51,540 nucleotides of DNA from the sequence record ON711395.1; one strand, written 5' to 3'. The DNA comes from Escherichia phage brachmannus. The first letter of the stretch is position 1. Each line of letters opens with the position of its first letter. Under the pieces are notes generated by a model. It ran no database searches and was not told the origin of the DNA. It was given only the letters and a program-made list of their open reading frames with translations. The position numbers and the translations under genes are program-made. Below, one piece after another: positions 11,200 through 29,076 of this stretch.

Positions 11200-13881
11200 A
11201 TGGCTGAAAAATACGCTGGCCTAACGCTAGGCGTTGACGTGTCGCAGGTCAACAATGCTGTTAAATCATTGCAGCAATTCAAGAAGGCAAACGACGACGC
11301 AAAAAAAAGCGTTAATGAATTTGTTGATTCTGAGGTTGTGGCCCGACAGCAAGCAAAACAGCTTGCCGAAGAACTGGCGCGCCAGAAAGCAGAATTTAAG
11401 AAAATCCAGGAGTCAATTGATCCCACCGCATCAAAGATGGATAAGCTGAGAAAGGCAGCGACACAGCTTGATGCGCTATGGAAAAAGGGCGTTGTTCCTG
11501 ATCAGACTTTTTTTGAGCTTGGGGCAATTCTTGAGACGCAGCAAAACAAGCTGATCGCAACAAAAAAAGCGATGACAGAGGAAGGCCGCGCGGCGCTTGA
11601 GGAATCAAAGAACAAGGCGCGTGCAGCGGAAGAGGCTAAAAAATTCGTCCAGGCTTTGCGTGAGCAGGAAGAAGCAGCAGGAAAAAGCAAGTCTGAATTG
11701 CTGGAAATGAAAGCGGCACAGCTTGGAGTTAGCCAGGAGGCAGCACCTTACATCGCAAGGCTGAAAGAGCAGGAAAAGCAGATCCAGAAACTTGGGATTT
11801 CTACAGGCCAATACAAACAAGCAATGGCGCAATTGCCAATGCAGATCACAGACGTGGTGACTTCACTTGCTTCTGGTATGCCCGTTTGGTTGGTCGCAGT
11901 CCAGCAGGGTGGACAGATCAAGGATTCTTTTGGTGGTGCATCCAATGCTTTAAAGGCGTTGCTATCTTTCCTGAATCCAGTAAACGTGGCGTTTGGCTTG
12001 CTTTCCGGCACGATGGCAATTGCTGCATATAATTCCTACAAAGCACAGACAGAGCTTGAGGCAATTAAAAAAACCGTTCAGGAAACAACTGGCTTGAGTG
12101 GTGAGTTTGCCGAAAAGATTGCTATAGGAATCCAGGAGCTTTCCGACAAGACAGGCGAAAGCGCCGAAGATCTGGCAAAGGCTTACATAACAACGAAAGA
12201 CGGCGCGAGCGAGGCGATTAAAAAACTGGTTGACGTTGGAATGACTTATGATGACGCAAAAAAGAAAGTCAACGAGTACAAGGGCGCGTCTAGCTTTGTC
12301 AGCTTGAATAACGAAATTGCAAACCACAAAAACAAAGTCCTTGAGTTGGGTGAGTCGTGGTATGAAGTTTTGAAAGCTAAGCGTGATTACGCTTCCCCGT
12401 CCGGCGGCCTGTTAGGTAAAGAGCTTGGCTATGTTAATCCTATGCTTAAGTTTGCACTTAACACTTATGAAGACATTGGAAAGGTCGTAAAAGATGCGAA
12501 TAAGGACATGGCGGAACGAGCGGAGCGAATCGACAAAGAAAACCTGTCATTAAACAGAGTGCGAGCGGCGCAAGAGGCTTTAAACAAAGCCATTGAGGAT
12601 CAGAAGGGCGTGGCGCGTTCTGCTGATGAAGAACTGAAAAAGCGCGCGGCTGAAAACGTGGAGTTCAGACGCAAAGAGCTTGAGGAGATCAAGAAGCAGG
12701 AGCAGAAAAAGAAAGAGGCTAAAGGGGGAATAGTTCGCGGCCCTACTGAGCAGCTTGATAAAGAGTTGTACGTTTTAAAAGCGCAACTGGAAACTCTTAA
12801 AGAGCATCGCACTGTTAACGATGTTATTTCTCGCCAGCGTAAATCTTTATGGAGCATCGAAAAGCAGATCGAGATCCTGGAGAATGCGCAGAGCAAGCGG
12901 AAATTGACGGGAGCGGAACAGGCGCTACTAAACGAGCAAAAAGCCGTTCTTGAAATGGCAAGGCAAAAAGCTGAGCTAGGGGATCAGATTGTTTTGCAGG
13001 AGCGCAAAAACAAGCTGGAGCAAGATAGTCTTAAGTTTATCCGTGAAACGGAGGCGGCTATTGATGCGATTGGCCTTAAGCAACTTGGCTACACTGAAAA
13101 GCAGATCGAGCGTGAGCTAGAGTTACGCAAGCTGCGCACCGACTACGAGGCGCAAGGCGGAAGCGTTAGCGACGAAGTTTTTCAGCAAATGGAGACGAAA
13201 CTTAAGCTGTATTACCAGGCGCAAGACGAGGCGCAAGGAAACTGGTTAGCCGGAGCAAAGAACGCATGGGAGCTATTCGCGGAAGATGCAAACAATGCCT
13301 ATGGCAATGTTCAGCAGATTGCAAGCGAGGCGTTAAACGGCCTTACAAACCAATTAGCGAATTTTATCGCTACTGGCAAGGCAAACTTTAAAGACTTCTC
13401 GACTGCTATCATCAAAATGATTATTCAGATGATCACGAAAATGGTTGTCTTTAATGCGTTATCTGGCCTGATGGGTGGTCAAACCTGGACGATGGGGAGC
13501 TTGCTTAAGAATATTGGCGGATTTGCTGGCGGTGGATATACTGGCGACGGCGGGAAGTATGAGCCAGCCGGAATTGTTCATAAGGGTGAATTTGTCATGA
13601 CGAAGGAGGCAACGCAGCGTATCGGAGTAGGCAACTTGTACCGCATGATGCGAGGCTATGCTAACGGCGGCGTTGTTGGTGGTTCCGGCTATACTGGCGG
13701 TGGCACTGTCACTGGTGGAGCACCTCAATTTAACATCGGTGGGATTGATGTTAGCATCAATAACGGCAATGATCCGAAGGGTATCGAAACTGGTGTTAAG
13801 ATGATCTTTACTGATATGATTAGACGTTCCTGTATGCAGGGCGGGGAGGTTTACGAATTTGTTATGAGCAAGCGAGGTTGA
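11200..13881 (+). CDS. tail tape measure protein
   Basis: 893 aa, long coiled-coil, Gly-rich C-terminal region, canonical position. Confidence 0.9.
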   Translation: MAEKYAGLTLGVDVSQVNNAVKSLQQFKKANDDAKKSVNEFVDSEVVARQQAKQLAEELARQKAEFKKIQESIDPTASKMDKLRKAATQLDALWKKGVVPDQTFFELGAILETQQNKLIATKKAMTEEGRAALEESKNKARAAEEAKKFVQALREQEEAAGKSKSELLEMKAAQLGVSQEAAPYIARLKEQEKQIQKLGISTGQYKQAMAQLPMQITDVVTSLASGMPVWLVAVQQGGQIKDSFGGASNALKALLSFLNPVNVAFGLLSGTMAIAAYNSYKAQTELEAIKKTVQETTGLSGEFAEKIAIGIQELSDKTGESAEDLAKAYITTKDGASEAIKKLVDVGMTYDDAKKKVNEYKGASSFVSLNNEIANHKNKVLELGESWYEVLKAKRDYASPSGGLLGKELGYVNPMLKFALNTYEDIGKVVKDANKDMAERAERIDKENLSLNRVRAAQEALNKAIEDQKGVARSADEELKKRAAENVEFRRKELEEIKKQEQKKKEAKGGIVRGPTEQLDKELYVLKAQLETLKEHRTVNDVISRQRKSLWSIEKQIEILENAQSKRKLTGAEQALLNEQKAVLEMARQKAELGDQIVLQERKNKLEQDSLKFIRETEAAIDAIGLKQLGYTEKQIERELELRKLRTDYEAQGGSVSDEVFQQMETKLKLYYQAQDEAQGNWLAGAKNAWELFAEDANNAYGNVQQIASEALNGLTNQLANFIATGKANFKDFSTAIIKMIIQMITKMVVFNALSGLMGGQTWTMGSLLKNIGGFAGGGYTGDGGKYEPAGIVHKGEFVMTKEATQRIGVGNLYRMMRGYANGGVVGGSGYTGGGTVTGGAPQFNIGGIDVSINNGNDPKGIETGVKMIFTDMIRRSCMQGGEVYEFVMSKRG

Positions 13882-16907: not shown

Positions 16908-16933
16908 TAACCAGCATTGCGCTGGTTTTTTTG
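16908..16933 (+). terminator. intrinsic terminator after HNH gene
   Basis: AACCAGC-ATTGC-GCTGGTT then T7. Confidence 0.65.
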
Positions 16934-16981
16934 TGCATTTATAATGAGCAAACCAATAAACAGCACAAAAGGTTAAAAGTC

Positions 16982-19900
16982 ATGGATAAATGTATGATAA
17001 GTGGCAGTAAGGGCGGAAGCAAAAAGCCATACGTGCCAAAAGAGATGGAAGATAACCTGATCTCGATAAACAAGATTAAAGTTTTGCTGGCTGTATCTGA
17101 TGGCGAGTGCGATCCAGACTTCACGTTGCGTGATCTTTATCTTGATGATGTTCCGGTTATTGCCAGCGATGGCACTGTTAACTATGAGGGGGTAACGGCT
17201 GAATATAGACCAGGTACACAGACGCAAGATTACATCCAGGGGTTTACTGACACATCAAGCGAGGTGACAGTTTCGCGAGATATTACAGCAGACAATCCCT
17301 ATATTATCTCTGTAACAAATAAAAATCTTTCTGCAATCAGAATCAAGATTCTGATGCCAGTTGGCATAAAACAGGAGGATAACGGCGATCTTGTTGGTGT
17401 AAGGGTTCAATATGCCGTAGATATGGCTGTTGATGGCGGTTCTTATAGCGAGGTTATGAGAGATGTAATTGACGGCAAGACAAGATCAGGATATGACCGC
17501 AGCAGAAGGATTGATCTTCCTAAGTTTGATGAGCGCGTTTTAATCAGGGTCAAGCGGCTGACTCCAGACAGCACATCTTCAAAGGTGACTGATAAAATCA
17601 AACTGCAAAGTTACGCTGAGGTTGTGGATGCAAAATTCCGTTATCCTCTGACTGGCCTTGTATTCGTAGAGTTTGACAGCGAATTGTTTCCTACGCAAAT
17701 CCCTAACATTTCTATAAAAAAGAAATGGAAGATTATTAATGTGCCAAGCAACTATGATCCAATATCTAGAGAATATCACGGGTCATGGGATGGGACTTTT
17801 AAAAAAGCGTGGTCAAATAATCCTGCTTGGGTTCTTTATGATCTGGTAACGAATCAGCGTTATGGACTTGACCAGCGAGAGTTAGGAATACAGATCGACA
17901 AGTGGAGCTTATACGAGGCTGGTGTTTACTGTGATCAGAAAGTTCCAGACGGTAAGGGCGGTACAGAGCCTCGCTACCTATGCGATGTGGTGATCCAGAA
18001 TCAGGTTGAGGCTTATCAGCTAATCCGTGACATTTGCTCAATCTTTCGCGGAATGAGCTTTTGGAATGGAGAGAGCTTATCAATCGTAATTGATAAACCG
18101 CGCGATCCATCATACGTGTTTACTAATGAAAACGTCATCAACGGTGATTTTCAGTACACAGCAGCAAGCGAAAAAAGCATGTACACGCAATGTAATGTGA
18201 CGTTTGACGACGAACAAAACATGTATCAGCAGGACGTAGAGGGGGTTTTTGATACTGAGGCGGCATTACGATTTGGATACAATCCAACAAGCATTACAGC
18301 GATCGGGTGTACACGCAGGAGCGAAGCGAATCGTCGCGGTCGGTGGGTTTTGAAAACAAACCTTAGAAGCACTACTGTAAACTTTGCTACCGGACTAGAG
18401 GGGATGATTCCATCCATAGGTGATGTGATTGCTATCGCTGATAATTTTCAGAGCAGCAATCTAACGTTAAATCTTTCGGGCCGAGTAATGGAAGTTTCAG
18501 GCTTGCAAGTTTTCGTTCCGTTTAAGGTTGATGCGCGTCCTGGTGATTTTATTATCATCAACAAGCCGGACGGAAAGCCAGTTAAGCGAACGATCTCAAA
18601 GGTGAGCGCAGACGGAAAAACCATTGAGTTAAATATTGGCTTTGGTTTTGATGTTAAGCCTGATACTGTTTTTGCGATTGACCGTACTGACCTTGCGTTG
18701 CAGCAATACGTTGTGACAACTATCAGCAAGGGTGATGACGAAAACGAGTTTACCTATTCAATCACGGCTGTGGAGTACGATCCGAACAAATACGACGAGA
18801 TTGATTATGGAGTAAACATTGATGACAGACCGACTTCAATTGTTCAGCCTGACGTGATGGCAGCGCCTGAGAACGTTAAGATCTCATCTTATTCTCGCGT
18901 CGTGCAGGGTGTTAGCGTTGAGACTATGGTTGTTTCATGGGATAAGGTTCCTTACGCATCGCTTTATGAAATGCAGTGGCGAAAAGGTGATGGTAACTGG
19001 CTGAATACGCCGCAGACAGCTAACAAAGAGATAGAGGTAGAAGGGATTTACTCTGGCAACTACCAAGTAAGGGTGAGATCCGTTTCTGCAAGCGGTAACG
19101 CTTCCCCGTGGTCAAAGATTGCAACCGCCACTCTGACAGGTAAAGTTGGCGAGCCAGGAGCGCCGATTAATCTTACGGCTTCTGATAATGAAGTTTTTGG
19201 CATTCGTGTCAAATGGGGTATGCCGGAAGGATCGGGCGATACGGCTTACATTGAGCTTCACCAATCGCCAGATGGGACGGTGGAAAACTCAAGTTTGCTT
19301 ACGCTGATCCCGTATCCTCAATATGAGTATTGGCATAGCACGTTACCAGCGGGTCAAGTTGTATGGTATAGAATCCGTAGCGTTGACAGGATCGGCAACG
19401 TTTCCGGCTGGACTGACTTTGTTCGCGGCATGGCGTCAGATGATGTTGAATCTGTTTTAGGCGACATTCTGGACAAGATTTTTGATACCGAAGCGGGTCA
19501 AGAAATCAAAGAGAACGCCATAGACAGTGCAAACAAAATCAAAGACCAGGCGCAATCAATCATCCAGAACGCATTGGCAAACGATGCCGATGTGAAGTGG
19601 ACGCGAGTACAAAACGGAAAGCGTAAGGCTGAATATGGTCATGCACTGGAGCTTATTGCTACCGAAACGGAGGCGCGAGTAACTCAAATCGAAGAGTTAA
19701 AGGCGTCAATTGATGAAGATATAGTTTCAAGTATCAAAACCGTTCAGGAAGCGATTGCCAATGAATCAGAGACGCGAGCTACTCAAGTGCAGCAGCTTGA
19801 TTCTAAATTTACGAAGGAAATAGACGGCGTAAAACGAGATACGGCTGCAAGCATTGGCGAGGTAAGGCAAACCATTACCAATGAATCAGAAGCGCGTGCG

Positions 19901-20560
19901 CAAGCCGTTCAGCAGCTTGACGCTAAGTTTTCGAAAGAGATTAATGACCTTAACGATGCAATCAAGGTTGATGTTGAGGCGAACATATCAGAAGTAAGAC
20001 AGGCTATCGCTAATGAGACAGAGGCAAGGGTTCAGGCTGACCAGGCTTTAACAGCCAAATTCGGAGACGTTGAATCAGCACTAGCCGAAAAACTTGATTC
20101 GTGGGCTAACGTTGATTCTGTTGGCGCTAAGTACGCTATGAAATTGGGCCTTACTTACAAGGGGCAGAAGTACAGCGCAGGAATGATCATGCAGTTGTCG
20201 CAATCTTCTCAAGGCCTGATCTCGCAAATCTTGTTCGATGCTAACAGGTTCGCGATCATGACTAGCTCTACTGGCGGTACGTTTACATTGCCGTTTGTAG
20301 TAGAAAATAACCAGGTGTTTATCAACAGTTTGTTGGTGAAAAACGGGTCCATTACTAACGCAATGATTGGTAACGTGATTCAGTCAAATAACTTTGTTCA
20401 GAATCAGCAAGGATGGAGGCTTGATAAAAATGGTAACTTTGAGAACTACGGAACGAGAGCGGGGGAAGGAGCTACAAAATTCACTAACGAAGGCTTAAAG
20501 GTGAAAGATGCAAATGGACGATTGAGGGTTGAGATAGGGAGAATAACCGGAAGTTGGTAA
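16982..20560 (+). CDS. central tail fibre / host specificity protein (lambda J-like)
   Basis: about 1190 aa; N-terminus GSKGGSKKPYVPKEMEDNL resembles lambda J N-terminus; alternative start ATG 16994; C-terminal coiled-coil repeats. Confidence 0.85.
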   Translation: MDKCMISGSKGGSKKPYVPKEMEDNLISINKIKVLLAVSDGECDPDFTLRDLYLDDVPVIASDGTVNYEGVTAEYRPGTQTQDYIQGFTDTSSEVTVSRDITADNPYIISVTNKNLSAIRIKILMPVGIKQEDNGDLVGVRVQYAVDMAVDGGSYSEVMRDVIDGKTRSGYDRSRRIDLPKFDERVLIRVKRLTPDSTSSKVTDKIKLQSYAEVVDAKFRYPLTGLVFVEFDSELFPTQIPNISIKKKWKIINVPSNYDPISREYHGSWDGTFKKAWSNNPAWVLYDLVTNQRYGLDQRELGIQIDKWSLYEAGVYCDQKVPDGKGGTEPRYLCDVVIQNQVEAYQLIRDICSIFRGMSFWNGESLSIVIDKPRDPSYVFTNENVINGDFQYTAASEKSMYTQCNVTFDDEQNMYQQDVEGVFDTEAALRFGYNPTSITAIGCTRRSEANRRGRWVLKTNLRSTTVNFATGLEGMIPSIGDVIAIADNFQSSNLTLNLSGRVMEVSGLQVFVPFKVDARPGDFIIINKPDGKPVKRTISKVSADGKTIELNIGFGFDVKPDTVFAIDRTDLALQQYVVTTISKGDDENEFTYSITAVEYDPNKYDEIDYGVNIDDRPTSIVQPDVMAAPENVKISSYSRVVQGVSVETMVVSWDKVPYASLYEMQWRKGDGNWLNTPQTANKEIEVEGIYSGNYQVRVRSVSASGNASPWSKIATATLTGKVGEPGAPINLTASDNEVFGIRVKWGMPEGSGDTAYIELHQSPDGTVENSSLLTLIPYPQYEYWHSTLPAGQVVWYRIRSVDRIGNVSGWTDFVRGMASDDVESVLGDILDKIFDTEAGQEIKENAIDSANKIKDQAQSIIQNALANDADVKWTRVQNGKRKAEYGHALELIATETEARVTQIEELKASIDEDIVSSIKTVQEAIANESETRATQVQQLDSKFTKEIDGVKRDTAASIGEVRQTITNESEARAQAVQQLDAKFSKEINDLNDAIKVDVEANISEVRQAIANETEARVQADQALTAKFGDVESALAEKLDSWANVDSVGAKYAMKLGLTYKGQKYSAGMIMQLSQSSQGLISQILFDANRFAIMTSSTGGTFTLPFVVENNQVFINSLLVKNGSITNAMIGNVIQSNNFVQNQQGWRLDKNGNFENYGTRAGEGATKFTNEGLKVKDANGRLRVEIGRITGSW
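19640..20060 (+). repeat. intragenic tandem repeats (three units of about 35 codons) in J-like gene
   Basis: protein repeats I(A/T)NE(S/T)E(A/T)R...VQQLD(S/A)KF(T/S)KEI. Confidence 0.6.
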
Positions 20561-23368: not shown

Positions 23369-24037
<669 letters not shown>

Positions 24038-24080
24038 TAAACGGGGCGCTTGCGCCCCTTTTGTCATAGGAGAAAACAAA

Positions 24081-24533
24081 ATGCACGTTATTACAGGTGA
24101 GATTCGAAAAGAGCCAAAAGTAAAGCAAATGCCTAACGGCAGCACGCTATATGTTATTGAGCTTTCCGAACGATATAAAGATCGTGAAGGAAATTGGCAG
24201 TATACAAACTATGTGTTTTTCTTTAACGCGAAAACAGACGTCCTGAATGGTTGGTATGCTGAGGCGTTCCAGGTAGGCAAGGTTATTTCTGTTTCCTGCG
24301 ATACCTTGCGAGTTGAAACGCGAGAATACAACGGAAAGATTTACAGCACCGTGCAGCCTGGCGGATTTGCAAACTTGCTATTTAGCCAGAGAGGTGAAAG
24401 CCAGCAACAATATCAGCAGCGAACGCAAGGAGGATGGGGGCAACCACAACAGCAACAGCAACAAAATACTCAACAGCAGCCGCAGCAAAGCAATCAGCCT
24501 CCGATTGACTTTGACGACGATATACCATTCTGA
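24081..24533 (+). CDS. ssb: single-stranded DNA-binding protein
   Basis: OB-fold-like N-terminus, Gln/Gly-rich linker, acidic C-terminal tail DFDDDIPF; ATG 24081 with GGAG RBS (track start 24030 alternative). Confidence 0.9.
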   Translation: MHVITGEIRKEPKVKQMPNGSTLYVIELSERYKDREGNWQYTNYVFFFNAKTDVLNGWYAEAFQVGKVISVSCDTLRVETREYNGKIYSTVQPGGFANLLFSQRGESQQQYQQRTQGGWGQPQQQQQQNTQQQPQQSNQPPIDFDDDIPF

Positions 24534-24545
24534 TAACAAAAAGCC

Positions 24546-24577
24546 CCGCATATGCGGGGCTTTTTTAGTCTAACGTG
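24546..24577. terminator. bidirectional terminator after ssb
   Basis: AAAAAGCCCCGCA-TAT-GCGGGGCTTTTTT. Confidence 0.75.
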
Positions 24578-25089
24578 GTTGGTTTGTTTACCAGTGCCTC
24601 TACAACCGCTTTTAGCTCGTCAATTTCTTTTCTCATCTCATCGTTTTCCGCTTTCAGTTTCTTAACGTGGTGAATCAGTGGAACAGTGAGGCGGTCATAC
24701 ATAACGCCTTCCGCCACCATGCCATTACTTGAAGCAATGGCAGGATCTTCTCCTTCTTGCAGCGGTCGCCAGTGAACGTACTCCGGCGCAATTTCTCCAA
24801 CCTCTTCCGCGATTAGCCCGTACCATCCCCAATCTTTACGGTCGCTTTCACAAGTTGACCGATACCAAACAGGACGCATTTCAAGCATCAGATCCGCATA
24901 TTCATCAATAACCGATTCTACGCTGCGCTTATAACGAGAAGAGGAAGTGGAGCGTAAAACTTGCGAAACTCCAGCATTTGGATCAAGCCATAAGTTTGCT
25001 GATTGAGCGGTTGTGTTAAGATTAAATAAATAAAATGCATCGTTACCAGTTAGGGGGTAAAAACTCCCACTATACCTTCCGCTATCCAA
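24565..25089 (-). CDS. tail fibre C-terminal intramolecular chaperone-like domain protein (peptidase S74-like)
   Basis: SSSRYKRSVESVIDEY and YGLIAEEVGEIAPE resemble S74 chaperone domain motifs; C-terminal coiled coil; only TTG start available, likely fused with upstream ORF. Confidence 0.45.
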   Translation of the reverse strand: MDSGRYSGSFYPLTGNDAFYLFNLNTTAQSANLWLDPNAGVSQVLRSTSSSRYKRSVESVIDEYADLMLEMRPVWYRSTCESDRKDWGWYGLIAEEVGEIAPEYVHWRPLQEGEDPAIASSNGMVAEGVMYDRLTVPLIHHVKKLKAENDEMRKEIDELKAVVEALVNKPTTLD

Positions 25090-25238
25090 CTCGGACGATA
25101 GATCATTTTGTTTAGATACAACTTCAACTTATTGTCAACATCAGTAGTTGATGCTTTTCCTGCAACATCCTGTTTTAGTGTTGAAACGTCATTTTTCAGC
25201 TTCGTTATATCACTAGGTATAACAGTGACTGTAGCCAT
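25050..25238 (-). CDS. small coiled-coil protein, probable N-terminal part of split fibre/chaperone gene
   Basis: 62-aa ORF ending in T5C5 run; downstream ORF continues in -1 frame. Confidence 0.35.
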   Translation of the reverse strand: MATVTVIPSDITKLKNDVSTLKQDVAGKASTTDVDNKLKLYLNKMIYRPSWIAEGIVGVFTP

Positions 25239-25250
25239 TTTCCTAACTCC

Positions 25251-25529
25251 TTAAGCCCATTCTCTAATAGGCCGATCTAACTCAACCACGTATCCATTAA
25301 AAATTACGGCATCAAACTTATCATCAATGATTCGCACATTAACGAAATAGCCGTCGTTCTTTCGCGCAATCTCCTCGCCATCGTCATATCGTGCAATTAC
25401 TGTATAAGTATTGCCGATTACATCGAGCAGGGTTGCATCCTGAATGGATTCGTTTTCGTTCCATTCAATTTCTTCCAGAAAGGCGGAAAACTCCGCCTTG
25501 TCTACAAATTTCAGTGTTAAATCACGCAT
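25251..25529 (-). CDS. hypothetical protein (tail fibre-associated)
   Basis: ATG overlapping stop of tail fibre gene. Confidence 0.4.
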   Translation of the reverse strand: MRDLTLKFVDKAEFSAFLEEIEWNENESIQDATLLDVIGNTYTVIARYDDGEEIARKNDGYFVNVRIIDDKFDAVIFNGYVVELDRPIREWA

Positions 25530-27508
25530 TATACAATTTCCCCCAATTGATGATCTGTTAGTGCCTTGTGCCATATACGGAAGTTTCTAACGTGACCGAA
25601 AAGATGGCGTTCGCCTGTACTTGTTTGTCCGCCAATCCTTATAGTAGCCGTTGATACTATATATCTCCATTCCGTTTTTGTTTCGCTTGATATTCTGGCA
25701 TTACTTACACAACAAGTATTGTAATCACTCTTTACTCTCATTCCTATGATCATCTTTTTTAGTTTTGCATTCTCGTAAACCCTTCTTTTTGATCCACCTA
25801 TATCGCAATAAGGGAATCCATCATTATCGCCATCGGCAGGCCCGAAAGCAAGAATAATTGCCGCACCAGATTGATGACCTCCAGTATCGAAAACACGAGG
25901 CGCAGCATTTGGCGTTATATACCAGTTCTTATGTACCTCACAAAGAACAGTAAAAGGAAGATTATAAAGGTTATTCTTGATTGGGATTGTCACCATATCG
26001 CTTGCCCGTGTTACTGGAGTCTCTTCTGTAATAATAAACGATGAAGCGCACACACCTCCTTCAACTTGAGGGGTAGCAATATAAATATAATCACCTGCAC
26101 CAGTTCCCCCTCCATCTTTTGCTGGTGCATACTGCACCATTGCACCGATCATATTTTCTGTATCAAGCGCTTTAATTGTTGCCTCAAAGAAAATCCATTT
26201 GCTTGCTTCATCTTTAACAGCCCTTGCAGTAATACGATTTGCAGCGCCGCCAGTTTTTTCAATTGATAAATCTGTCAGATTTACGTAAGCATCACCCAAA
26301 AATGCATAAGAAGATCCATCGTAGTTTTCAAATCGTAATCGGCATCTTAAATTTGGAGTCCCACTTTGCGCCCTGCATGATATGGTTACATACTTTTCAT
26401 TTCCTGTTACATCAAAACCTCTACTGCCGGAAACGGTTACTATGTTAATCGCTGAAGTTTGTCCTACCATTTCTGGTTTTAATGTAAATTTTGCGTACTG
26501 GAATCCGAAATCATCTACACCTGATCTATCTAAGATCATATTTGATGACTTGTTCCATTTTGAAGGATTGGTACTATTTATAAGAAGGTTTGTTCTTTGC
26601 CCCTCAATGAGCAGACCATCCTTTTCAAATCTAGGTTCATCAATAGCAGCATTAGTAAGCACCCCAGACTTATTAATGTAAGTAGCGGTTGATGCTCGTT
26701 TAAACTTAACTATCTTGTCACCTGGCATCGTGATCTCATCGTCACCTATAACAATCTTTTTGTATGACGGCGAGAATCCGGTAATCATATCCAGGGAGTC
26801 ATTAAATGGTATCCACACGTCCGGCAACGGTTGCAATAAGTCCTTGTAAGGTTCTGCCGCCTGCTTTGCGTATTCCTCCGCTTGATCTCGCGCACTTTCA
26901 GCTCCTGCCTTTGCAGTGTTCGCAGCGTCACGCGCGGATTCAGCGCCAGACTTTGCTGCTTCAGCGCCAGTCTTTGCAGTGTTTGCAGCGTCGCGCGCGG
27001 ATTCAGCGGCAGCCTTTGCAGTATCAGCACCTTTCTTGCTATTCGCTGCATTTGTTGCGCTTGTCTTCGCGTTATTCTCGCTGGTTTTAGCTGCCTGCTG
27101 GCTTGCTGCTGCTGCGTCAGCATTTGTCTTTACGTCTTCCTGGATCTTCTGTAGCTTATCCCAATCAAAATCCTTGATGATCTCAATAAATCCAGCAAAC
27201 TCCGATTCCTTCCCCTGGTAATAACGCAGCGTTTCCGCTACGTCTTGCGCAAGACCGTCAACCGTTAACGAGTCATGAAGCAAGATCAGGTAATTTGTCT
27301 TCTGGACTACCGCGCCGCCAGTAGTAATTGCGCGAATGCTTGTATCGCTAATCACTTCTGTAATCACAGCAGCTTGCAAAGGTTGAGCAAGAAAGAAAAT
27401 AGTTGCGCCTGGGCGAATCAATGTTAATTGCTCACGCCATTTTGTACCGTAACCAGTTACATAACCTTGCTCGTCCATAGACGCTTGGCCTTGTCTGTAA
27501 ATCGCCAT
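25529..27508 (-). CDS. tail fibre protein
   Basis: about 660 aa; Ala/Ser/Thr-rich tandem repeats typical of fibre shafts; C-terminal lectin-like region (NFRIWHKALTDHQLGEI); ATG 27506-27508 with AGGAGG RBS. Confidence 0.7.
   Translation of the reverse strand: MAIYRQGQASMDEQGYVTGYGTKWREQLTLIRPGATIFFLAQPLQAAVITEVISDTSIRAITTGGAVVQKTNYLILLHDSLTVDGLAQDVAETLRYYQGKESEFAGFIEIIKDFDWDKLQKIQEDVKTNADAAAASQQAAKTSENNAKTSATNAANSKKGADTAKAAAESARDAANTAKTGAEAAKSGAESARDAANTAKAGAESARDQAEEYAKQAAEPYKDLLQPLPDVWIPFNDSLDMITGFSPSYKKIVIGDDEITMPGDKIVKFKRASTATYINKSGVLTNAAIDEPRFEKDGLLIEGQRTNLLINSTNPSKWNKSSNMILDRSGVDDFGFQYAKFTLKPEMVGQTSAINIVTVSGSRGFDVTGNEKYVTISCRAQSGTPNLRCRLRFENYDGSSYAFLGDAYVNLTDLSIEKTGGAANRITARAVKDEASKWIFFEATIKALDTENMIGAMVQYAPAKDGGGTGAGDYIYIATPQVEGGVCASSFIITEETPVTRASDMVTIPIKNNLYNLPFTVLCEVHKNWYITPNAAPRVFDTGGHQSGAAIILAFGPADGDNDGFPYCDIGGSKRRVYENAKLKKMIIGMRVKSDYNTCCVSNARISSETKTEWRYIVSTATIRIGGQTSTGERHLFGHVRNFRIWHKALTDHQLGEIV
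26880..27120 (-). repeat. intragenic tandem repeats in tail fibre gene (Ala-rich shaft repeats)
   Basis: repeated DNA blocks CTTTGCAGTGTT(C/T)GCAGCGTC(A/G)CGCGCGGATTCAGCG; protein AESARDAANTAK repeats. Confidence 0.6.
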
Positions 27509-27526
27509 TTGTAAAATCCTCCTAAA

Positions 27527-27546: not shown

Positions 27547-27572
27547 AATGCAGATAATAGCATTTTCAAGTG

Positions 27573-27599
27573 CAAAAAAAAACCCCGCATAAGCGGGGC
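27573..27599 (-). terminator. intrinsic terminator after primase (minus strand)
   Basis: CCCCGC-ATAA-GCGGGG with A9 upstream on plus strand (T-run on minus strand). Confidence 0.7.
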
Positions 27600-27614: not shown

Positions 27615-28544
27615 TTATAGCAGTGATTCGGGCTTGTAGAGTTTTCTTTCTACTCCCTGTTTAAAATTATCGTTAACAGGCATCATTATGTCAAGCCCTC
27701 TTTCCTCTGCCGCGATTATCACATCACGATCATCTTTCCGGCAGACTACGCGCATTCTTCTTTCTCCTTTATATCTATGCGCAACCATTTCAAGATTTGA
27801 AGGAGTAAAACAGGCCCACACCTCTTGACCAGTTGATAAATGAACATGCTGAGAATCAACCCAATCAAGGCACAAATAGATCGTCTTATCTGTACTACCT
27901 GTTTTAACAACAGATCCTCGCGTGTAGTCGCGAGCTAAAAACCAATCCTTTCCATCCTCATCAATGAAAAGCACGTTACACATTTCATCATCCAGCCCGT
28001 CATCATGCACCAGGTGACAAGGTAGCGCGTGAATGTATCGACCATCCTTGACGCCGCAATCATAATGACAATCTTCCGGCGGATATATCCCCTCATAAAC
28101 GCTTAAAGGTGTGCGATCGAATTTTAATGTTTTTGCCATCACTTTTTCGCAACATTCATGACTTGCCTGTTTCCCGAACGAGTAACCAGAAGAACGCGAA
28201 GCGCATTTGTTTGCTCTGATCCTGTAATCTTGTGGCACTTTTCCGAGGAAGCGGCCCAAAATGTTGATGGCCTCGCTGTAAGGTTCGCCAGTTAATTTCA
28301 TTAACCAACCGATCCCCGTGTCGTTGCCGCACACGTTGCAGATCGCGCCGCCGTCGCCCTCTTCATTTAGCTTATCAGTCCATCTAAAACGATCCTTACC
28401 GCCGCAGTGTGGGCAAGGTTGATGCTTTTTGTTGAAAACATCGCTATGCAGTCCGCAAATGCTTTGTAGTGCTTCACGCCATAACCCCTTCATATATGGC
28501 AAAACATCTTCTTTCTGATAGGTCATAAAGTTTTCAGTATTCAT
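27615..28544 (-). CDS. DNA primase (zinc-binding)
   Basis: CPHCGG...CNVCG zinc ribbon; acidic toprim-like region; ATG at 28542-28544 with GAGGT RBS. Confidence 0.6.
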   Translation of the reverse strand: MNTENFMTYQKEDVLPYMKGLWREALQSICGLHSDVFNKKHQPCPHCGGKDRFRWTDKLNEEGDGGAICNVCGNDTGIGWLMKLTGEPYSEAINILGRFLGKVPQDYRIRANKCASRSSGYSFGKQASHECCEKVMAKTLKFDRTPLSVYEGIYPPEDCHYDCGVKDGRYIHALPCHLVHDDGLDDEMCNVLFIDEDGKDWFLARDYTRGSVVKTGSTDKTIYLCLDWVDSQHVHLSTGQEVWACFTPSNLEMVAHRYKGERRMRVVCRKDDRDVIIAAEERGLDIMMPVNDNFKQGVERKLYKPESLL

Positions 28545-28599
28545 GGCAAACCTCAATAAAAAAGCCCAGCAAATATTATCATTTCGCTGGGCCTTATCA

Positions 28600-29076
28600 T
28601 TAGCTATTCGTGCTGTTATCACCTTTGTAGAATCGTCCGCCTGGTTCGTAGTCTGAATTTTTGACTACGCGCAACATATCGTATTTGTCGCAACGGGTAG
28701 TAAGAGGCTTACCGTTAGAATCAAACCGCAGATCTGGACGACAAAATGATGCGCGGTATCCTTTGCATCCATTATATTTGTAGTCGTTATGCACCTTTTG
28801 TGCTCCAGCGGCTGAAATCATACCACGCTTTCGCCACTGGTTAACGACTTGCTGAGATACGCGCAGACGTCGAGCCATAGCAGGAACGCCGCCGTAATAC
28901 TCGATCAGAATGTCAAGGCGAGATTTCAGGCTTGCTTTTACCTCATCTCGCAGGATAAGAAATCCGGTTCGGTGTTTTCGTGGTTTTTTGTCTTTACCTC
29001 GTCGCGTTCCGTTGTTACCGTTAATAGTGCGCTTGTCGATCTCACCAGTAGATACTGCAATTCGTGCATCTTTCAT
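28600..29076 (-). CDS. HTH DNA-binding protein (putative transcriptional regulator)
   Basis: helix-turn-helix-like segment GVPAMARRLRVSQQVVNQWRKRG; basic N-terminus. Confidence 0.45.
   Translation of the reverse strand: MKDARIAVSTGEIDKRTINGNNGTRRGKDKKPRKHRTGFLILRDEVKASLKSRLDILIEYYGGVPAMARRLRVSQQVVNQWRKRGMISAAGAQKVHNDYKYNGCKGYRASFCRPDLRFDSNGKPLTTRCDKYDMLRVVKNSDYEPGGRFYKGDNSTNS

What the first reader, a model, noticed from the sequence alone, without database searches (positions are those of the whole stretch)
25529..27508. Minus-strand tail fibre with Ala-rich shaft repeats and a lectin-like C-terminus
The fibre gene lies on the opposite strand between ssb and primase, away from the main tail module. 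It contains DNA-level tandem repeats (about 26880-27120) and a C-terminal segment (NFRIWHKALTDHQLGEI) reminiscent of lectin-like receptor-binding domains, and is followed by the split chaperone-domain ORFs, so it is a likely host-range determinant.
Basis: partly seen in the sequence, partly recalled or inferred. Interest (0 to 1): 0.45.

Follow-up and report, generated by a model that had tools for sequence, protein, structure and literature searches.

The report
T1-like phage lateral tail fibre
This is the ordinary side tail fibre gene of a T1-like coliphage (Warwickvirus), sitting where this phage family always keeps it. It has a sugar-binding-type tip, and its small partner fibre gene is broken by a one-base deletion.

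Summary
ORF 25529-27508 (minus strand, 659 aa) is 98-99% identical to annotated tail fibre genes of Warwickvirus phages swan01 and XY3 (Drexlerviridae). The ssb-to-primase position is the standard lateral-fibre locus of this family.

Domains:
- An N-terminal anchor shared with the Klebsiella phage RAD2 depolymerase.
- Twelve Ala-rich heptads; a 63-nt tandem duplication lies at 26897-27019.
- A carbohydrate-binding-module (CBM)-like "GTA head-spike-fibre" domain.

Refinements:
- Between near-identical phages the swapped segment is the middle CBM-like domain (aa ~271-540). The LamG tip is conserved.
- The "split chaperone ORFs" are one gene, intact in about 40 of 47 relatives, broken here by a 1-nt deletion in an A-run. 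It encodes a small distal fibre with its own intramolecular chaperone, not a chaperone for the big fibre.
- A 92-aa gene overlaps the fibre stop by one base and accompanies this LamG-ended module in at least six phage groups.
- The homologous trio in T5-like phage IrisVonRoten has been published as a proximal fibre plus an attached distal fibre.

Verdict: already known, low interest. The receptor is unknown.

The parts
27582..27599 (-). Intrinsic terminator hairpin (GCCCCGC-TTAT-GCGGGGT followed by T8) between the primase stop and the fibre gene
   Evidence: scan; sequence
27518..27523 (-). Shine-Dalgarno AGGAGG, 9 nt upstream of the fibre ATG
25529..27508 (-). Lateral (proximal) tail fibre CDS, 659 aa plus stop
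27149..27508 (-). aa 1-120: N-terminal virion-anchor domain shared by Drexlerviridae lateral fibres and depolymerases
   Evidence: aa 1-175 match RAD2 DpK2 7LZJ/7VYV, E 1e-52; fibre PHROGs match aa 1-129 to 1-212; (literature)
26825..27148 (-). aa 121-228: Ala-rich (32% Ala) shaft. Twelve heptads at aa 136-219 (26852-27103), inferred to form a triple-helical coiled coil
   Evidence: (DpK2 N-terminal 'extended triple helical bundle')
26897..27019 (-). 63-nt tandem duplication (2.0 copies, 88% matches), equal to three heptads repeated
25958..26824 (-). aa 229-517: conserved linker plus a CBM-like beta-sandwich ('GTA head-spike-fibre' domain, NCBIfam NF048003)
   Evidence: 59.7 bits vs cut-off 36, aa 300-502; 6TB9, E 1e-5, aa 269-517; profile vs 6TB9, 4e-9; model confident for aa ~310-485; Foldseek hits to Pa193/E217 baseplate complex/tail fibre entries and CBM4
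25889..26698 (-). aa ~271-540: the segment replaced by recombination between otherwise near-identical Warwickvirus phages; likely specificity cassette
   Evidence: vs tinuso: flanks 90-100% identical with pS <=0.16; this segment 43-90% with pS 0.54-0.89
25532..25957 (-). aa 518-659: C-terminal LamG/pentraxin/CBM40-type (ConA-like) lectin-fold domain ending in the NFRIWHKALTDHQLGEI motif
25251..25529 (-). 92-aa ORF (phrog_1361, no known function). Its ATG overlaps the fibre stop (TAATG). Obligate companion of LamG-ended fibres; inferred assembly chaperone or adaptor
24565..25238 (-). Small distal fibre gene (224 aa when intact): conserved N-terminal connector MATVTVIPSDITKLK, short tip, then a Peptidase_S74 intramolecular chaperone. 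Here split into 62-aa and 174-aa ORFs
25111..25113 (-). Site of the frameshift: a run of 3 A where swan01 and XY3 have 4
24543..24560 (.). GC-rich hairpin (GCCCCGC-ATAT-GCGGGGC) between the convergent ssb and small-fibre genes. T6 follows on the + strand; likely a shared terminator

Best explanation
The ORF encodes the proximal lateral (side) tail fibre subunit of a Warwickvirus (Drexlerviridae, T1-like) coliphage.

Shown by sequence or structure comparison:
- A family-wide N-terminal anchor domain.
- A shaft of 12 Ala-rich heptads.
- Two distal beta-sandwich domains of carbohydrate-binding type. The first is a CBM-like 'GTA head-spike-fibre' domain, which is the part exchanged between sister phages. 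The second is a terminal LamG/pentraxin-fold domain, conserved within the genus.

Inferred:
- The protein is a homotrimer fixed to the tail tip by its N-terminus.
- It binds a surface polysaccharide (O-antigen-type primary receptor) reversibly. This speeds adsorption and helps set which smooth strains can be infected.
- Irreversible binding and DNA ejection depend on the J-like tip protein and its RBP.

The neighbouring genes:
- The fibre gene overlaps by one base (so is probably translationally coupled to) a 92-aa gene that travels with this LamG-ended module in every lineage examined. This protein is most likely its assembly chaperone or adaptor.
- Next comes a small second fibre subunit: a conserved N-terminal connector, a T5-like tip and a self-cleaving S74 intramolecular chaperone. 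By homology with IrisVonRoten Gp22/Gp24 it docks on the proximal fibre.
- In this genome that second gene is disrupted by a 1-nt deletion, so the phage probably carries only the proximal fibre. Alternatively, the sequence has a homopolymer error.
For: Identity and locus:
- 98.9% DNA identity to swan01 and XY3, with the same gene order.
- BASEL phages PeterMerian and KarlJaspers annotate the same trio at the same locus.
- Maffei 2021 describes this locus, with only its 5' end conserved, as the Drexlerviridae lateral fibre locus.

Anchor:
- aa 1-175 match the RAD2 depolymerase DpK2 (E 1e-52).
- DpK2 was immunogold-localised to tail-tip appendages and has an N-terminal triple-helix bundle.

Shaft: heptad periodicity.

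Middle domain:
- NCBIfam GTA_spike_fiber scores above its cut-off; PDB 6TB9 matches.
- CBM-like fold.
- The RcGTA head spike fibre binds capsular polysaccharide.

LamG domain.

Mosaic swap of aa ~271-540 with saturated synonymous differences, flanked by near-identical sequence.

Purifying selection on all three genes: dN/dS 0.04-0.67 in individual comparisons, and at most 0.40 where dS is large enough to be informative.

Cassette conservation:
- 80 IMG/VR loci with the 92-aa gene were examined. About 73 have an upstream gene ending in the LamG motif, with a 1- or 4-nt overlap.
- The cassette also occurs in lambdoid prophages and T5-like phages.
- The C-terminal module is present in 206 phage records.

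Proximal/distal model:
- Window aa 192-659 are 68% identical to IrisVonRoten Gp22.
- That gene is followed by a 92-aa gene and by Gp24, whose N-terminus is 71% identical to the small fibre's N-terminus.
- Humolli 2025 models Gp24 attached to proximal fibre Gp22, which has a protruding 'galectin-like' C-terminal domain.

Host-range role of a Drexlerviridae fibre: CRES7/CRES9.
Against: - There is no experiment on this protein or on any >90% relative.
- Virion proteomics of swan01 found only five proteins, and the fibre was not among them. That dataset is too shallow to count as absence.
- The window's own Laminin_G_3 score is below Pfam's threshold.
- The models are monomers.
- Most close relatives were isolated on O-antigen-less K-12, so the fibre is not needed there and its ligand is unknown.
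- Attachment of the small fibre, and the role of the 92-aa protein, rest on synteny and on a published prediction for a 68%-identical homologue.
Confidence: 0.8

Rival explanations
1. The terminal LamG domain, rather than the middle CBM-like domain, is the main receptor-binding and host-range-determining part.
For: It is the most distal domain, with a lectin fold closest to sialic-acid-binding CBM40 and pentraxins. Humolli 2025 suggests the homologous domain of Gp22 may act as an additional RBD. It does diverge strongly between genera: KarlJaspers is 17-33% identical over aa 541-630.
Against: Within Warwickvirus the LamG domain stays 89-94% identical while the middle domain drops to 60-67% through recombination. 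Conservation alongside the always-present 92-aa partner also fits a structural or docking role.
Confidence: 0.25
2. The downstream S74 ORFs encode a trans-acting chaperone needed to fold the 659-aa fibre. This follows database names such as 'chaperone of endosialidase' and 'putative lateral tail fiber chaperone'. The frameshift would then abolish fibre assembly.
For: Peptidase_S74 hit. Annotations in JK16, XY3, PeterMerian and KarlJaspers. The gene is conserved next to the fibre.
Against: - By established knowledge of endosialidase and T5 pb1, S74 domains act on their own polypeptide and are then cleaved off. The Ser-Lys pair (S49/K54 of the 174-aa ORF) and a pre-cleavage tip are present.
- In a related contig the same C-terminus ends a single 1187-aa fibre.
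- The N-terminal 17 aa match the connector of the 574-aa distal fibre Gp24.
- About 45 of 80 cassette loci lack any such gene yet keep the LamG fibre and the 92-aa gene.
- At least six isolates carry frameshifts in it.
Confidence: 0.12
3. The fibre is an enzyme (a depolymerase or glycanase tailspike) rather than a non-catalytic adhesin.
Against: There is no beta-helix. The best fold matches are non-catalytic lectin and CBM domains. No glycoside-hydrolase or lyase family was found by Pfam or NCBIfam. No GH16-type ExDxxE motif is visible in aa 518-659 (read).
Confidence: 0.05
4. The split of the small fibre gene is a sequencing or assembly error in a homopolymer, not a real mutation. The phage would then make both fibre subunits.
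For: The change is a single base in an A-run. Three other isolates differ by +1 in a C5 run, which is typical of homopolymer miscalls. The intact gene is under purifying selection.
Against: - Frameshifts in relatives also occur at non-homopolymer sites (ityhuna -1, JLBYU10 +2).
- Loss of side fibres by frameshift during growth on rough laboratory strains is a known phenomenon. Lambda PaPa stf is an example from my own knowledge; only says that lambda PaPa lacks the side tail fibres Ur-lambda has, without mentioning a frameshift.
- No read data are available here.
Confidence: 0.45

Closest known systems
Lateral tail fibre locus of Drexlerviridae (for example swan01 SWAN_00002-00004, XY3 GNY05_00056-58, PeterMerian bas05_0029-0031; Maffei et al. 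2021)
   Same: Same position between ssb/recombination genes and primase, the same three genes, and 78-99% protein identity. The N-terminal anchor is conserved across the family.
   Different: In the window the third gene is frameshifted. The middle-domain allele differs from tinuso and PeterMerian.
IrisVonRoten (Bas32, T5-like) Gp22 proximal fibre, Gp23 and Gp24 T-shaped distal fibre (Humolli et al. 2025)
   Same: Gp22 is 68% identical over window aa 192-659, including the 'galectin-like' (LamG) end. A 92-aa gene follows. The distal fibre shares the N-terminal connector MxTxTVIPxDITKLK and an S74 chaperone.
   Different: Gp22 has a T5-type anchor and works with LtfC. Gp24 is 574 aa with two receptor-binding domains, whereas the window's distal subunit is only 224 aa (connector, short tip and chaperone) and is broken.
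Klebsiella phage RAD2 depolymerase DpK2 (PDB 7LZJ; Dunstan et al. 2021)
   Same: The N-terminal 175 aa are homologous (E 1e-52): the anchor and the start of the triple-helix bundle. Both are tail-tip appendages of a Drexlerviridae phage.
   Different: The distal part of DpK2 is a beta-helix capsule hydrolase. Here it is two lectin/CBM-type beta-sandwiches.
RcGTA head spike fibre Rcc01080 (PDB 6TB9; NCBIfam NF048003)
   Same: The middle domain is homologous, including the QxExGxxxSSYIPTxxxxxTRxxD end motif. The RcGTA fibre binds capsular polysaccharide.
   Different: It sits on a capsid vertex of a gene transfer agent and has no LamG domain after it. Here the domain is part of a tail fibre.
Branched LtfA/LtfB fibres of T5-like phages DT57C and DT571/2 (Golomidova et al. 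2016)
   Same: The principle is the same: a proximal fibre carries a second fibre that docks through a short conserved N-terminus, and the subunits end in S74 chaperones.
   Different: The docking sequences differ (LtfB resembles phiEco32 gp15). LtfA itself ends in an S74 domain, and there is no 92-aa gene.
Lambda Stf/Tfa side tail fibres
   Same: Accessory side fibres with an Ala-rich shaft. The same C-terminal module occurs behind the lambda-type N-terminus PF08400 in many E. coli prophages. From my own knowledge, the laboratory strain lambda PaPa lost Stf through a frameshift; one search states only that PaPa lacks these fibres.
   Different: Lambda's own Stf tip and Tfa chaperone are unrelated to the LamG module and the 92-aa protein (no Pfam hit).

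Membership tests
Drexlerviridae lateral tail fibre | Conserved N-terminal anchor domain (about the first 120 aa) | tested here: met
   E 1e-52 to DpK2 aa 1-175. 87-99% identity to tinuso, PeterMerian and KarlJaspers over aa 1-120.
Drexlerviridae lateral tail fibre | Gene located between the recombination/ssb genes and primase/helicase, with variable 3' part | tested here: met
   family description; 3' mosaicism
Drexlerviridae lateral tail fibre | Present on virions as tail-tip appendages | not testable with these tools
   Shown only for the homologous-anchor protein DpK2. swan01 proteomics is too shallow.
NCBIfam NF048003 GTA_spike_fiber domain | Score at or above the curated cut-off (36 bits) | tested here: met
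   59.7 bits, aa 300-502, model positions 1-181 of 182
Pfam PF13385 Laminin_G_3 (ConA-like lectin/glucanase) | Score at or above the gathering threshold (27.6 bits) | tested here: not met
   14.8-16.9 bits for the window protein. However, 31 of 35 diverse homologues of the same domain match at E <=0.01, best 5e-13.
LamG / pentraxin / CBM40 fold (ConA-like beta-sandwich) | Predicted fold superposes on solved members | tested here: met
LamG / lectin function | Actual carbohydrate binding | not testable with these tools
Pfam PF13884 Peptidase_S74 intramolecular chaperone (downstream gene) | Domain score at or above the gathering threshold, with the Ser-Lys catalytic pair | tested here: met
   22.4 bits vs 22. 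S49 and K54 of the 174-aa ORF align with model positions 1 and 6.
Pfam PF13884 Peptidase_S74 intramolecular chaperone (downstream gene) | Domain fused in frame to the fibre part it folds | tested here: not met
   In the window a 1-nt deletion separates the N-terminal 41 codons from the rest. The gene is intact in about 40 of 47 relatives.
Two-subunit (proximal + distal) lateral fibre of the IrisVonRoten Gp22/Gp24 type | Proximal fibre with the LamG-ended module, a 92-aa gene, and a distal fibre with the conserved N-terminal connector, in that order | tested here: met
   same order in 32 of 80 surveyed loci
Two-subunit (proximal + distal) lateral fibre of the IrisVonRoten Gp22/Gp24 type | Physical attachment of the distal subunit to the proximal subunit | not testable with these tools
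   Only a published multimer prediction exists for the homologue. No multimer prediction tool is available here.
Tail fibre assembly chaperones (Tfa, gp38 and similar) for the 92-aa protein | Sequence homology to a known chaperone family | tested here: not met
   No Pfam, NCBIfam or PDB match. PHROG 1361 has no assigned function. The chaperone idea rests on position and co-occurrence only.

The most novel reading that the evidence does not exclude
The LamG-ended fibre module and its obligatory 92-aa partner would form a shared docking 'socket'. Distal fibres beginning M-x-T-x-T-x-IP-x-DI-x-x-LK would be the matching 'plug'. The pair would be exchanged as a kit between at least six phage groups: Drexlerviridae, Dhillonvirus, Queuovirinae, T5-like, lambdoid and rV5-like. 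On this reading the 92-aa protein is an undescribed class of fibre chaperone or adaptor. The middle CBM-like domain and the plug-in distal fibre would then be two independently swappable specificity elements.
Probability: 0.3. Interest if true: 0.45.

Novelty: already known. Interest (0 to 1): 0.15.

Why it matters
The practical value is modest.
- The domain map shows which part of the fibre is actually exchanged between sister phages: aa ~271-540, not the lectin-like tip.
- The "chaperone" annotation of the downstream gene in public records is probably wrong.
- This genome may lack the distal fibre subunit.

These points matter to anyone who wants to retarget T1-like phages or to interpret their host ranges. 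The uncharacterised 92-aa partner protein is a small, testable open question. Nothing here challenges current understanding.

Tried and rejected
- Direct Pfam scan of the fibre gave only a sub-threshold Laminin_G_3 hit, so fold evidence came from a diverse alignment.
- AlphaFold on aa 225-659 with 38 close homologues (at least 67% identical) modelled only the middle domain. The LamG part had pLDDT <35. Re-running the last 180 aa with 35 diverse representatives worked.
The link to the RcGTA fibre therefore rests on sequence.
- Programmed frameshifting in the small fibre gene was rejected. There is no X_XXY_YYZ slippery site at CTAAACAAAATG, relatives read straight through with one more A, and other isolates are broken at other sites.
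- The small S74 gene as a mere leftover of an ancestral long fibre was considered, because a related contig has one 1187-aa fibre with the same two ends. It was rejected as the whole story. The gene has its own strong RBS and ATG, low dN/dS and a connector shared with real distal fibres.
- Homology searches for the 92-aa protein (Pfam, NCBIfam, PDB profile) found nothing.
- The promoter scan found no convincing sigma-70 promoter between the terminator and the fibre start.
Tandem Repeats Finder and a protein-level autocorrelation were used instead.
Full report
**What the window is**

The 51.5-kb window is a T1-like phage genome.
- Terminase, portal, major head protein, tape measure (11200-13881) and a J-like tip protein (16931-20560) lie on the + strand. 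They are followed by exonuclease, recombinase and ssb, then primase and helicase.
- The 3.15 kb around the finding is 98.9% identical to Escherichia phages vB_EcoS_swan01 and vB_EcoS_XY3 (Drexlerviridae, Tempevirinae, Warwickvirus). 102 phage records match it.

**Checking the observation**

- The minus-strand ORF ends at 25529. The mechanical ORF starts at GTG 27532.
- AGGAGG sits 9 nt upstream of ATG 27508, and relatives annotate the same 1980-nt CDS.
- Tandem Repeats Finder reports a 63-nt unit in 2.0 copies (88% matches, score 197) at 26897-27019.
- At protein level aa 121-228 are 32% Ala. Residues 136-219 are twelve heptads of the form [AS][KRQ]x[AGN]A[EKA][TSN], with identity peaks at lags 7, 14 and 21. 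The DNA repeat is a recent duplication of three heptads.
- The C-terminal motif and the two overlapping downstream ORFs are present.

**Is the position unusual?**

No. XY3, AV105, swan01, tinuso, PeterMerian and KarlJaspers all have the same order: ssb, then convergently the small S74 gene, a 92-aa gene, the fibre, then primase. Maffei et al. 2021 describe this as the lateral tail fibre locus of Drexlerviridae. It is flanked by conserved recombination and primase/helicase genes, and only the 5' end of the main fibre gene is conserved.

**Domain anatomy of the fibre**

1. *Anchor.* aa 1-175 match the N-terminus of the Klebsiella phage RAD2 capsule depolymerase DpK2 (7LZJ, 7VYV; E 1e-52). That protein was located by immunogold on tail-tip appendages and has an N-terminal extended triple-helix bundle. 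This part is the anchor plus the start of the shaft.
2. *Middle domain.* aa ~269-517 match the RcGTA head spike fibre Rcc01080 (6TB9, E 1e-5) and the NCBIfam model GTA_spike_fiber (59.7 bits against a cut-off of 36).
   - A first AlphaFold model of aa 225-659 was confident only for aa ~310-485.
   - That part is a beta-sandwich resembling chains of the Pseudomonas phage Pa193/E217 baseplate complex/tail fibre structures and CBM4/22/28/30 modules.
   - The RcGTA fibre has been shown to bind capsular polysaccharide.
3. *C-terminal domain.* The last 180 aa form a discrete domain found in 136 representative clusters, almost always at the protein's C-terminus.
   - The window's own Laminin_G_3 score is below threshold.
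   - 31 of 35 diverse members match that family, best E 5e-13.
   - A profile of them finds LamG, CBM40, neurotoxin Hc-N and pentraxin structures.

**Which part varies**

I compared the window fibre with sister phages in 30-aa windows.
- Against tinuso, aa 1-270 and 541-659 are 90-100% identical with almost no synonymous change.
- aa 271-540 fall mostly to 43-67% identity (87-90% in the two end windows), with synonymous differences at or near saturation (pS 0.54-0.89).
- PeterMerian shows the same pattern.
- This is replacement of the middle CBM-like domain by recombination. The LamG domain stays 89-94% identical within the genus.
- Only in the other genus (KarlJaspers) does the LamG domain also diverge.

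The likely specificity cassette is therefore the middle domain.

**The "split chaperone ORFs"**

- Alignment with relatives shows one gene: 675 nt in swan01, and 738 nt in XY3, which has an extra 63-nt repeat. In the window it is broken by loss of one A in an A-run at 25111-25113.
- The 174-aa "ORF" with a TTG start is an ORF-calling artefact.
- A tblastn survey finds the gene in one piece in about 40 of 47 relatives.
- Frame-breaking indels occur at four different sites in six isolates: window; AV105, orkinos and JLBYU19; ityhuna; JLBYU10.
- Intact copies have dN/dS of 0.04-0.49, and 0.04-0.23 in the three better-resolved comparisons.
- The S74 domain has its Ser-Lys pair, and such domains act on their own chain.
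- In a related 51.9-kb contig the same C-terminus (76% identical) ends a single 1187-aa fibre that has the same anchor.

So this is a small fibre subunit, not a chaperone for the 659-aa protein.

**A conserved three-gene kit**

- The C-terminal module (aa ~229-659) occurs behind other anchors: the lambda Stf-type N-terminus PF08400, P2-type domains, and T5-type anchors. It is present in 206 phage records from Drexlerviridae, Dhillonvirus, Queuovirinae, T5-like, lambda-like and rV5-like phages.
- In E. coli lambdoid prophages and in T5-like KS_S14 the fibre is followed by a homologous 92/93-aa gene (46-51% identity). Next come proteins that share the N-terminus MATxTVIPxDIxxLK but differ elsewhere.
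- I surveyed 80 IMG/VR loci holding the 92-aa gene:
  - About 73 have an upstream gene ending in the LamG motif and overlapping the small gene's start by 1 or 4 nt. The window has TAATG.
  - 32 are followed by a connector-bearing protein of 151-583 aa.
  - About 45 are followed instead by a 97-aa membrane-like ORF.
- The 92-aa gene is thus tied to the LamG fibre, and the distal protein is optional.
- The 92-aa family has no Pfam, NCBIfam or PDB match and a dN/dS of 0.12-0.40 in the three more diverged comparisons.

**Comparison with published work**

- IrisVonRoten (Bas32, T5-like) has Gp22 (796 aa, 68% identical to window aa 192-659), a 92-aa Gp23, and Gp24 (574 aa). Gp24's N-terminus MVTKTVIPTDITKLKNE is 71% identical to that of the small fibre.
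- Humolli et al. 2025 model Gp24 as a T-shaped distal fibre attached to proximal fibre Gp22. They note a "galectin-like" domain protruding from the Gp22 C-terminus as a possible extra receptor-binding domain.
- Branched LtfA/LtfB fibres in DT57C are an older precedent for the principle.
- For Drexlerviridae specifically, two residues in a lateral fibre change the O-serotype range of Cronobacter phages CRES7 and CRES9.
- Maffei et al. state that the O-antigen role of these fibres is likely but had not been directly shown, and that terminal receptors are set by the locus downstream of gpJ.

**Mechanism proposed**

- *Shown:* the domain homologies, the fold of the two distal domains, the mosaic pattern, the gene order and its conservation, and the frameshift.
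- *Inferred:*
  - trimeric fibre anchored by its N-terminus;
  - a coiled-coil shaft;
  - reversible binding of a surface polysaccharide through the distal beta-sandwiches;
  - the 92-aa protein as chaperone or adaptor;
  - the small subunit docking by its N-terminal connector;
  - loss of that subunit in this isolate.
- Such loss would be tolerated on rough laboratory hosts, as in lambda PaPa (the stf frameshift is from my own knowledge; only says PaPa lacks the side fibres Ur-lambda has).

**Other details**

- A strong terminator (27599-27582 plus T8) separates primase from the fibre gene, and no good sigma-70 promoter lies in the 65-nt gap.
- A GC-rich hairpin at 24543-24560 sits between the convergent ssb and small-fibre genes.

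**Verdict**

The useful additions are:
- the domain map;
- the identification of the middle domain as the exchanged cassette;
- the corrected reading of the downstream ORFs;
- the obligate link between the LamG module and an uncharacterised 92-aa protein.

Noticed in passing
window 25251-25529 (-); L029:5187-5465, L032:4671-4946, L116:5790-6068: A 92/93-aa acidic protein family (phrog_1361) with no Pfam, NCBIfam or PDB match. It always sits directly after a LamG-ended fibre gene with a 1- or 4-nt overlap, across T1-like, T5-like, Queuovirinae and lambdoid elements. GenBank calls it 'hypothetical' or, in IrisVonRoten, 'tail fiber protein'.
   Followed up: partly
L001:2240-2303 (XY3), L002 (AV105), L115:4501-5196 (PeterMerian) versus window 25176-25238: The N-terminal connector of the small fibre (VTVIPSDITKLKNDVSTLKQD, 63 nt) is present in one copy in the window, swan01 and tinuso. 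XY3, AV105, orkinos, tuinn and JLBYU19 have two tandem copies. PeterMerian, JLBYU10 and L004 have an intermediate length (+21 nt). This is a copy-number polymorphism of the presumed docking peptide.
   Followed up: partly
L002, L118, L121 (C5 to C6 run, about position 182 of the gene); L117 (position ~373); L119 (position ~229): The small S74 fibre gene is frame-broken at four different sites in six isolates, most of them grown on K-12. Three isolates from Denmark and Utah share the same +1 C. This could be recurrent loss on rough hosts, shared ancestry or homopolymer miscalls.
   Followed up: partly
L029:5187-7859: In one E. coli prophage the pair [93-aa gene + S74 fibre gene] is tandemly duplicated, with identical 93-aa copies and the first S74 copy truncated at 263 aa.
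   Followed up: no
L035-L087 (about 45 loci), for example L030:6561-6854: In lambdoid prophages the LamG fibre and 92-aa gene are followed by a conserved 97-aa hydrophobic ORF (MDISPLLHALCAVAAQILVGLFTGNWAY...). It may be a membrane moron or exclusion protein; its function is unknown.
   Followed up: no
window 27572-27599 and 27666-27694 (-): A strong terminator lies immediately upstream of the fibre gene. The only good sigma-70-like promoter (TTGACA-17-GATAAT) lies before that terminator, inside the primase 3' end. How the fibre operon is transcribed is unclear.
   Followed up: no
one search hits H182, H186, H187 (Campylobacter phages C14, C11, C2) and H195, H201 (Listeria phage LM 4-11-1): Records labelled as Campylobacter or Listeria phages carry this coliphage fibre module at 45-86% identity. 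The Campylobacter records match as closely (about 46% identity) as the ~137-kb coliphages listed beside them (FFH2, nomo, nimi). They are probably mislabelled or contaminant sequences.
   Followed up: no
L113:5336-7160 (KarlJaspers): In the Hanrivervirus KarlJaspers four extra genes, one annotated 'putative sugar-binding protein', lie between the small S74 fibre gene and ssb. They are absent from the window.
   Followed up: no
window 24030-24533 and 27615-28622: Mechanical ORF starts (TTG for ssb, GTG for primase) are longer than the CDSs annotated in relatives (453-459 nt and 930 nt). The true starts are probably the internal ATGs.
   Followed up: no
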